From Octopus vulgaris (Eukaryota), in contig OX597836.1 of the NCBI GenBank assembly GCA_951406725.2, positions 4,464,001 through 4,528,000 of the forward strand: DNA of 64,000 nt, in the 5' to 3' direction. Each line of letters begins with the position of its first letter. The stretch's first letter is position 1. A model generated the notes under the pieces. The model had not been told where the DNA came from. It did no database searches and worked only from the letters and a program-made list of their open reading frames with translations. Of this stretch, positions 39,783 through 45,546 are shown one piece after another. The translations under genes were made by a program, and so were the position numbers.

Positions 39783-40186
39783 TGTGTGGTAAGTAGCTTG
39801 TTTACCAACAACATGGTTCCGGGTTCAGTCCCACTGCGTGGCACCTTGGGCAAGTGTCTTCTACTATAGCCTCGGGCCGACCAAAGCCTTGTGAATGGAT
39901 TTAGAAGACGGAAACTGAAAGAAGCCCGTCGGTTATATATATATGTATACATACTATGTGTGTGTGTGTATGTGTTTGTGTGTCTATGTTTGTCCCCCTA
40001 GAATTACTTGACAACCGATGCTGGTGTGTTTATGTCCCCGTTACTTAGCGGTTCGGCAAAAGAGACCGATAGAATAAGTACTGGGCTTACAAAAGAATAA
40101 GTCCCGGGGTCGAGTTGCTCGATTAAAGGCGGTGCTCCAGCATGGCCGCAGTCAAATGACTGAAACAAGTAAAAGAGTAAAGAGTA
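39783..40186 (+). mobile_element. SINE family A, young copy
   Basis: Near-identical to 45133-45546 and 61549-61950. Has B-box-like GGGTTCAGTCCC and an AAGAGTA-type tail. Confidence 0.95.
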
Positions 40187-42995: not shown

Positions 42996-43150
42996 GTGAG
43001 GATTTACAAAAACAATCAGAAGACGAAGACGAGTGTGTAAACAACAAACAGATGTATTAGTGTAACGCTCGAGAAGTGAGAAAGTCTTTTACGTTTCGAG
43101 CCTACGCTCTTCAACTGAAAGGAACAGGAATAAATCAACAGGGAGAGAAA
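42996..43150 (-). mobile_element. Penelope-like terminal-repeat fragment with degenerate minimal hammerhead motif (43086-43121)
   Basis: Minus strand reads CTTT-CAGTTGA-A-GAGC(GTAG)GCTC-GAAA-CG-TA-AAAG. A homologous fragment lacking this core lies at ~40575-40655. Confidence 0.55.
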
Positions 43151-43662: not shown

Positions 43663-44249
43663 ATATAGATATTTTCGATCTAGTTTGAATTTTTTGCAAT
43701 CAAATTTGAATTTTTCAATTGGTGCTCAATTTGAAAAAAAAAAGTTAAACTATATCAGCCGTAAGGGAATACATGTCTATCGTATCTAACTCGTCCAGTA
43801 GAGCCCACCAATTGATATCAGAAAAGTTCGATGAAATAACTCATGAACACTGTGATAGTTTCTACTAAAAGATGCTCTCTAACGACGACCAGTCTGAACA
43901 ATGGGAGATAATAGAAACAGAATCATTCGTTTATTATCTCCCATTGTTCAGACTGGTCGTCGTTAGAGAGCATCTTTTGGTAGAAGCTATCACAGTGTTC
44001 ATGAGTTATTTCATCGAACTTTTCAGATATCAATTGGTGGGCTCTACTGGACGAGTTAGATACGATAGACATGTATTCCCTTATGGCTGATGTATTTTAA
44101 CTCTTTTTTTTTTCAATGCTTGAGCACCAATTGAAACCTTCAAATTTGATTGCAAAAAATTCAAATTTGATTGTAAAGCATTCAAATTTGATTGCAAAGA
44201 ATTCAAATTTGATAGCAAAGAATCCAAATTAGATCGAAAACATCTATAT
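43663..44249. repeat. Long inverted repeat / foldback element
   Basis: 43751-43913 pairs without gaps with 43932-44094 (163 bp, 5 non-Watson-Crick positions). Outer arms extend to 43663 and 44249, and the right arm has four 21-bp tandem units at 44139-44222. Confidence 0.97.
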
Positions 44250-45132
44250 TTCAGAGCCTATTGCATTTTCCATAACGCAGCCAGTTAGAAATTAGTGTCG
44301 TACATCCAGTTATGTTAATGTTGTACGCACTATCATATTTAATATGCTATATGTGCAAAAATTTTATATGTCATATGTGATACAGCGTATCACAATTTAG
44401 ACCACTCATCCGACTTTAATCAGGAGAAAATTTCGGTCAACCTATTCCATTGTACATATTATGCTTGCTGATTGTTTGTACTGATTGCTTATATAATCAG
44501 ATACACGCAAGGATTTCTTCTTTAGAATGCGAAGTATATGATATATCACACGCATAAAATATACGTATAATAATTACGTATATCCTTCTGTACGTATATT
44601 AATTCATTAAATAATAATACATAGATAACTGAAAATATAAGATGTACTTGCATAGCAAGTGACCAAATCTGCGATCGTGTGCTGGAACGAAAACAATTGC
44701 AGCGTGGAAGGTATTTATAAGCCATTAGCACAGAATTCTGTCAGTGAACAGGTCGCGGTCTCAAAGCGACGAGCATATTTTGACAAATTGAATTTAAATA
44801 TTGAAGTAAATCTAACGGACTTTCTGTGTTTCTTAGAAAATATAAGTTCAGGTTTATATCAGTGCTTCTTGGAGAAATTTCGTCTCCGATTAATATTAAG
44901 TATATCAATAGGGAACTAAATTAGTTGCCCAGTTACTTTGGACTATTCTATTTATCGTAGCTACAGGACAACGAAAAGCTTTGTAGCACGTTAGCTAGAC
45001 GGAGACTATATATATAAATGTATGTATATATGTAAATGTATGTATATCTATCTCTATGAGAGTGTCAGTATATTTCTCACTCGGTAAAATAGAAAAATGG
45101 CGTACGCGTTTATGTTTGTAACTTAGCTTATA

Positions 45133-45546
45133 GGCGCAGGAGTGGCTGTGTGGTAAGTAGCTTGTTTACCAACCACATGGTCCCGGGTTCAGTCCCACTG
45201 CGTGTCAACTTGGGCAAGTGTCTTCTGCTATAGCCTCGGGCCGACCAAAGCCTTGTGAGTGGATTTGGTAGACGGAAACTGAAAGCCCGTCGTATATATG
45301 TACATATATATATATATGTGTGTGTGTGTTTGTGTGTCTGTGTTTGTCCCCCTAGAATTGCTTGACAACCGATGCTGGTGTGTTGATGTCCCCGTTACTT
45401 AGCGGTTCGGCAAAAGAGACCGATAGAATAAGTACTGGGCTTACGAAAGAATAAGTCCCGGGGTCGGGTTGCTCGATTAAAGGCGGTGCTCCAGCATAGC
45501 CGCAGTCAAATGACTGAAACAAGTAAAAGAGTAAAGAGTAAAGAGA
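45133..45546 (+). mobile_element. SINE family A, full-length young copy (tRNA-like head, internal (TA)n(TG)n)
   Basis: GGCGCAGGAGTGGCTGTGTGGTAAG (A-box-like), GGGTTCAGTCCC (B-box-like), TTGGGCAAGTG core-like motif and an (AAAGAGT)n tail. Confidence 0.95.

What the first reader, a model, noticed from the sequence alone, without database searches (positions are those of the whole stretch)
43663..44249. ~590-bp foldback with a 163-bp ungapped stem whose mismatches are strand-biased to G-U wobbles
Seen: 43751-43913 pairs with 43932-44094 without indels. The five non-Watson-Crick positions are T43753:G44092, G43761:T44084, T43859:G43986 and T43866:G43979 (all G-U compatible on a + strand RNA), plus A43820:A44025. 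The spacer can pair further (AAAC/GTTT, GAAT/ATTC), so the loop is tiny. The arms are complex sequence not related to the SINEs here. Established: coleoids have extensive ADAR A-to-I editing, G-U-rich long hairpins are typical of hpRNA/endo-siRNA loci, and A-C mismatches (the - strand reading) are favoured ADAR sites. Inference: this is a hairpin-RNA/siRNA or hyper-editing locus, or a young foldback/MITE. Four of four in one direction has only about a 1-in-8 chance explanation, so the bias is suggestive and not proof. The outer arm includes an A-C pair (43671:44241).
Basis: partly seen in the sequence, partly recalled or inferred. Interest (0 to 1): 0.75.

Follow-up and report, generated by a model that had tools for sequence, protein, structure and literature searches.

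The report
Foldback miniature transposon, ordinary family member
This hairpin is one of dozens of scattered copies of a small broken jumping gene, likely made when one end of the element folded back and copied itself; the G-U bias disappears across the family, so the locus is ordinary.

Summary
The foldback and its five mismatches are real, but it is not a hairpin-RNA gene. Window 43666-44246 is a 581-bp palindromic MITE with TA on both sides; 65 palindromic copies were recovered from this genome. An empty-site test gives a 2-bp duplication (54 of 57 alignments). The parent was found: a decayed long-TIR IS630-Tc1-mariner transposon with a DD34E transposase. Each arm is the outer 143 bp or more of the TIR joined at a 2-bp microhomology to the last 37 transposase codons; the stop codon lies in the 18-nt spacer. 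Unfolded precursors with that junction exist and show a 4-bp inverted repeat at the turn point. G-U versus A-C is 234:236 over 65 copies and 232:220 over 56 non-duplicate copies, with no overdispersion. The window's four G-U sites are C-to-T changes, not A-to-G. One real oddity: arms of the same copy share rare derived bases ten times more often than chance (21 versus 2.0), and this copy has the most shared derived bases (8), so arms are copied onto each other. Precedents exist (Goblin, Galileo). Transcription of this locus is not shown.

The parts
43664..43665 (.). Left TA target-site duplication
   Evidence: TA on both sides in 68 of 79 two-ended rows; empty paralogous sites of copy L150 are 2 bp shorter than the joined flanks in 54 of 57 alignments
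43666..44246 (.). Whole element: 581-bp non-autonomous palindromic (foldback) MITE
   Evidence: Shared termini across copies; 132 exact end matches in the genome, control 0
43666..43808 (+). Left arm, TIR-derived part: terminus, one full 21-bp unit, poly(A), subterminal sequence
   Evidence: Matches both ends of parental elements L040, L107, L109
43807..43913 (+). Left arm, transposase-derived part (3' end of the ORF, sense on +; a stop made by C-to-T at 43866); joined to the TIR at a 2-bp microhomology (43807-43808)
   Evidence: tblastn-type match to transposase residues 122-162, E 2e-8; junction and translation
43914..43931 (-). 18-nt spacer: end of the transposase ORF with its stop codon (43925-43923 on the minus strand) and a few bases beyond it
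   Evidence: Translation; same sequence in unfolded parents
43932..44038 (-). Right arm, transposase-derived part (sense on -, open to the natural stop)
   Evidence: Match to residues 122-163, 74% identity, E 3.1e-10; alignment with homologues
44037..44246 (-). Right arm, TIR-derived part
44134..44238 (.). Tandem 21-bp subterminal units with a palindromic core (4 full units here, 1 on the left); likely transposase-binding repeats (inferred)
   Evidence: Family D14, spacing 21; counts 1 versus 4, and 28 in copy L120
44247..44248 (.). Right TA target-site duplication

Best explanation
It is one of at least 65 palindromic copies of a non-autonomous miniature element derived from a decayed long-TIR DD34E transposon, likely formed by an internal deletion followed by fold-back copying of one end, and likely spread by the parent's transposase. 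Shown: dispersed family, TA duplication, parent with DD34E transposase, arm = TIR + last 37 codons, unfolded precursors with the same deletion junction, 4-bp inverted repeat at the turn point, no G-U bias, excess of derived bases shared by the two arms of a copy. Inferred: the fold-back was a template switch during gap repair after excision; the transposase acted in trans on the 21-bp repeats; later arm-to-arm copying (conversion or repeated template switching) reset the arms, in this copy after 8 substitutions had accumulated, and 6 one-arm changes followed, 4 of them C-to-T on the plus strand by chance.
For: Family: 68 matches among 40 scored of 154 candidates; 65 distinct palindromic cores in 200 loci. 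TSD. Parent: Pfam DDE_3 E 9e-22, above cut-off; D-34-E spacing read from the alignment; TIRs of about 880 bp at the 5' end of L109. Precursors L068 and L069 carry the same TIR-to-transposase junction but keep the parental 3' side; parents show AATA..TATT around the same 18 nt. Independent foldbacks at other turn points: L039 (769 bp) and 10 minis of 78-162 bp among 79 rows. Mismatch null: 234:236 in 65 copies, 232:220 in 56, overdispersion p 0.58; polarised C>T 148, G>A 142, A>G 81, T>C 76. Arm copying: 21 rare shared bases in 16 of 56 copies versus mean 2.0, maximum 6 in 500 permutations; window copy ranks first with 8 shared derived bases. Junctions with unique flanks are bridged by contigs in two DNA runs of two studies (left: X1 and X2; right: X2).
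Against: In one search, 4 of 54 copies with at least four transitions were all one way, all G-U, against 1.2 expected; this included the window itself and the variable inner segment. On the outer 129 columns it became 4 of 37 (window G-U, three A-C) against 2.4 expected. No intact transposase copy was found among 150 scored matches of 2509 candidates or in the four longest copies read, so mobilisation is inferred. The TSD length rests on the empty sites of one copy. No contig spans the whole palindrome and no long reads were available. Only 8 of 122 arms have their partner as nearest neighbour, so arm copying is partial, not complete. I cannot tell whether this copy's arms were reset before or after insertion.
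Confidence: 0.9

Rival explanations
1. A functional hairpin-RNA/endo-siRNA locus whose stem is kept pairable by G-U wobbles.
For: Very stable plus-strand fold; 4:0 G-U in the stem; this copy has among the most similar arms, 3.6% against a median of 7.8%; family-like sequence occurs in contigs of four runs guessed to be RNA, but with alleles of other copies.
Against: No family-wide bias or overdispersion; high arm identity is explained by arm copying seen family-wide; molluscs reported to lack a dedicated endo-siRNA pathway (PMC12479628, passages; the authors allow a detection limit).
Confidence: 0.04
2. An ADAR hyper-editing substrate with mismatches shaped by or for editing.
For: Any long hairpin that is transcribed is an ADAR substrate (established knowledge, recalled); the minus-strand reading has A-C mismatches.
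Against: All four changes are C-to-T on plus (G-to-A on minus), one at a CpG; none is A-to-G. A>G 81 versus T>C 76 family-wide.
Confidence: 0.04
3. An assembly artefact (fold-back chimeric read or misjoin).
For: Long palindromes are a known artefact class (recalled); no contig spans it.
Against: 65 palindromic copies with their own flanks and decayed, unequal arms; the two arms differ in 21-bp unit number; junctions bridged in two DNA runs.
Confidence: 0.01

Closest known systems
Goblin MITE of Aedes aegypti (Tc1/mariner element Ozma; PMC3814204, passages read)
   Same: TA-type MITE with arms lengthened by inverse duplication of one end; inverted microhomology at the junction; template switch during gap repair proposed; one parent giving several MITE families. 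The paper lists whole-foldback MITEs (PALTA, CeleTc2, CeleTc5, Hairpin).
   Different: Arms here are about 250-315 bp, not 54 bp; they include transposase coding sequence; the parent itself has long modular TIRs and is dead.
Galileo two-TIR copies in Drosophila (PMC4168063 and PMC3573991, passages read)
   Same: [quoted passage not shown]
   Different: Galileo is P superfamily with a 7-8 bp TSD; this is IS630-Tc1-mariner with TA.
DD34E/Gambol and neighbours Dici and Hiker (PMC7386202, PMC13469147, passages read)
   Same: DD34E triad, TA TSD, transposase homologues of about 330-350 aa with HTH and DDE_3 domains.
   Different: No tree with reference sequences could be built; DD34E plus TA is shared with Tc1. 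The parent appears to have one intron and TIRs near 880 bp.
Mu killer of maize (PMC3440606, abstract read)
   Same: Inverted duplication of one TIR plus part of the transposase gene.
   Different: Mu killer is a single locus with a 4-kb read-through hairpin and shown silencing; here only 107 bp of coding sequence per arm, many copies, no transcript or silencing shown.
Made1 / hsa-mir-548 (PMC1784062, search listing only)
   Same: Palindromic Tc1/mariner MITE able to form a hairpin.
   Different: No small RNA is shown here; no Rfam match in the element.

Membership tests
MITE / non-autonomous DNA transposon | Short, no coding capacity, terminal inverted repeats | tested here: met
   581 bp, only 37 terminal codons of transposase per arm
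MITE / non-autonomous DNA transposon | Dispersed copies with shared termini and different flanks | tested here: met
   65 palindromic cores; flanks; 132 exact end matches
MITE / non-autonomous DNA transposon | Target-site duplication | tested here: met
   TA both sides 68 of 79; 2-bp difference at 54 of 57 empty sites of L150
MITE / non-autonomous DNA transposon | Related transposase-coding element sharing the ends | tested here: met
   L107-L110; all four decayed
IS630-Tc1-mariner (parent) | DDE/D transposase with N-terminal HTH and TA target | tested here: met
   DDE_3 above cut-off; HTH_32 E 2e-6 but below its curated cut-off; TA
DD34E/Gambol (parent) | DD34E spacing and TA TSD | tested here: met
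   34 residues between D and E; definition from PMC7386202
DD34E/Gambol (parent) | Falls inside the Gambol clade in a tree, apart from Tc1, Dici and Hiker | not testable with these tools
   Reference sequences not available: supplements gave names only; no PDB hit at E 1
hpRNA / endo-siRNA locus | Long fold-back structure | tested here: met
hpRNA / endo-siRNA locus | Excess of G-U-preserving changes on one strand | tested here: not met
   234:236 and 232:220; 123:126 on outer columns
hpRNA / endo-siRNA locus | Transcribed and diced into phased 21-22 nt RNAs | not testable with these tools
   Only contigs of runs guessed to be RNA were offered
ADAR hyper-edited element | A-to-G clusters in RNA against matched DNA | not testable with these tools
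   No raw reads or matched samples; genomic mismatches are C-to-T

The most novel reading that the evidence does not exclude
An amplified Mu-killer: a mobile foldback derivative that carries the transposase's own coding 3' end in both orientations, spread to dozens of loci, kept its stems pairable by arm-to-arm copying, and through read-through dsRNA helped shut down its parent transposon in a mollusc.
Probability: 0.06. Interest if true: 0.65.

Novelty: new member of a known kind. Interest (0 to 1): 0.2.

Why it matters
As a hairpin-RNA candidate it does not matter. Its modest value is as a well-documented case of how whole-hairpin MITEs are born: parent, deletion intermediate, several fold-back points and collapsed minis all survive in one genome, and arm-to-arm copying can be measured. 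It also supplies dozens of ready-made long stems in a genome where ADAR substrates are of interest, and it warns that G-U bias at a single repeat copy needs a family-wide control.

Tried and rejected
G-U bias as selection or editing: rejected by family counts. Rows dropped: 4 of 65 copies with a short arm match and 5 copies sharing flanks with L157, leaving 56. Empty-site pattern for L005: no match; 5 other copies gave only microsatellite or self alignments. TSD of 4 bp or more: at most 4 of 79. Host gene: no Pfam family at E 0.001 in the 102 longest of 200 filtered stop-to-stop frames of the window; short exons would be missed, so an intronic position is open. Rfam: two weak hits outside the element, far below gathering score. 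Sequencing runs: no RNA holder listed; unique flanks had no cover in four runs guessed to be RNA, which is no evidence either way. A contig of organism B enters the right end by only 25 bases, below the bridging threshold, so a shared insertion is a weak hint only. PDB search: none. Earlier findings of the scan: none. Literature: searches listed no paper describing this family; Repbase and Dfam could not be searched, so it may already be catalogued. The Sailor supplement was cut when stored, so its Gambol alignment was not seen.

Full report
1. Observation. The outer arms carry more differences: three extra 21-bp units on the right, two 2-bp gaps and 11 mismatches in all, including the A-C pair at 43671:44241. 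The MFE loop is 14 nt; the extra spacer pairing appears only partly, in the centroid.

2. It is a dispersed family. One arm gave 68 matches among the 40 scored of 154 candidates, best non-self identity 93%, many as opposite-strand pairs. A 24-base end motif occurs 132 times exactly, control 0. Among 200 fetched loci there are 65 distinct palindromic cores, most with an 18-nt spacer. Copies share termini, which fixes this element at 43666-44246. TA lies on both sides in 68 of 79 two-ended rows (a few rows are duplicates), in an A/T-rich context. Copy L150 sits in a common repeat whose empty sites are 2 bp shorter than its joined flanks in 54 of 57 alignments, so the duplication is TA. Contigs from two DNA runs of two studies bridge the left junction and one bridges the right; none spans the palindrome.

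3. The parent. Following unpaired ends led to a 1.24-kb element (L040) and then to longer copies L107-L110. They encode a transposase: Pfam DDE_3 at E 9e-22 to 1e-22, HTH_32 at E 2e-6 below its cut-off, with 34 residues between the second D and the E. A GT..AG intron of about 0.2 kb is inferred from the sequence and from the continuous homologues. The 5' TIR of L109 is about 880 bp with tandem 21-bp units. All four long copies are broken by stops, frameshifts or truncation, and the protein search found no better one among 150 scored. The nearest named relatives are an Octopus bimaculoides fragment (88%), Hamiltosporidium (56%) and Marteilia pararefringens (51%) proteins. DD34E and TA fit Gambol as defined in PMC7386202 (passages), but they also fit Tc1, and Dici and Hiker are neighbours (PMC13469147, passages); no tree could be built, so I file it only as IS630-Tc1-mariner DD34E.

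4. Anatomy and origin. Each arm is the outer TIR (143 bp on the left) joined at a 2-bp microhomology to the last 37 codons of the transposase; the right arm reads on into the spacer, which holds the natural stop at 43925-43923. L068 and L069 have this same junction but keep the parental sequence after the stop: they are the unfolded precursors. In several parents the 18 nt are flanked by a 4-bp inverted repeat at exactly the turn point. The family folded back independently elsewhere: L039 (769 bp) and 10 minis of 78-162 bp that turn inside the 21-bp units, whose core is itself a palindrome. Inference: deletion, then a template switch at a micro-inverted repeat during gap repair, then amplification in trans. 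This is the model proposed for the Goblin MITE, whose paper also lists whole-foldback MITEs (PMC3814204, passages). Recruitment of the end of the transposase ORF into TIRs is described for Galileo (PMC4168063, passages).

5. The G-U bias. With copies oriented by the spacer, G-U versus A-C is 234:236 in 65 copies and 232:220 in 56 after dropping 4 with short arms and 5 duplicates (p 0.60). There is no overdispersion (p 0.62, 0.58), which a bias tied to host transcription would give. Against my reading: one search found 4 of 54 copies all one way, all G-U, against 1.2 expected; on the outer 129 columns this became the window plus three all-A-C copies, 4 of 37 against 2.4. Polarised changes are symmetric: C>T 148, G>A 142, A>G 81, T>C 76. 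The window's four are all C-to-T on the plus strand, one at a CpG, none A-to-G. The 4:0 split is a one-in-eight draw.

6. The real oddity. This copy is 6.5% from the family majority (family mean 5.6%), yet its arms differ by 3.6%. It carries 8 derived bases in both arms, the most of 56 copies, and 6 in one arm. Family-wide, rare derived bases are shared by both arms 21 times in 16 copies, against a mean of 2.0 and a maximum of 6 in 500 permutations. A longer inner allele is on one arm in most carriers and on both in five. So sequence passes between arms, partially: only 8 of 122 arms have their partner as nearest neighbour. Whether this happens in place or during transposition is not resolved. 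Recombination and conversion between long TIRs were proposed for Galileo (PMC3573991, passages).

7. RNA. No RNA holder was listed. Contigs from four runs guessed to be RNA hold family-like pieces with other copies' alleles; this shows nothing about this locus. A survey of 32 molluscs reports no evidence of endo-siRNAs, with a caveat on sensitivity (PMC12479628, passages). The likeness to Mu killer, an inverted duplication of a TIR plus part of the transposase gene (PMC3440606, abstract), is structural only.

8. Verdict. A real, old, ordinary foldback MITE; new member of a known kind. My paper searches listed no description of this family, but repeat databases were not searchable. Confidence 0.9, interest 0.2. 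Most novel reading left open: an amplified Mu-killer-like silencer, probability 0.06.

Noticed in passing
G000:C12:85000-521000 (L003, L004, L006, L007, L009, L013, L016, L027, L174): Nine copies within 0.44 Mb at a contig start, mostly one subtype, with different flanks apart from the tandem pair L003/L004; smaller clusters at C19:34.95-35.06 Mb and C5:65-67 Mb. Looks like local hopping of the foldback form.
   Followed up: partly
L157, L159, L164, L178, L179, L180: Six copies share both flanks: one insertion carried in a segmental duplication on C8, C28 and C31.
   Followed up: partly
L120:5100-5730: A TIR with 28 tandem 21-bp units, as in Foldback-type modular ends.
   Followed up: no
L107:897-1385 versus P0001, P0002: Closest non-octopus transposases come from a microsporidian (56%) and the mollusc parasite Marteilia pararefringens (51%); old horizontal transfer is possible but untested.
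   Followed up: no
L005:1200-1780: The copy sits in the centre of another short palindromic sequence; no empty site found by pattern.
   Followed up: partly
L108:7152-7679: A different mariner-like transposase fragment lies next to the truncated parent copy (read by eye; family label recalled).
   Followed up: no
window 43017-43126, 44640-44830 and 45130-45540: Other high-copy repeats flank the element; the first two draw very deep contig cover, and 45354-45540 is 97% identical to 40000-40186.
   Followed up: no
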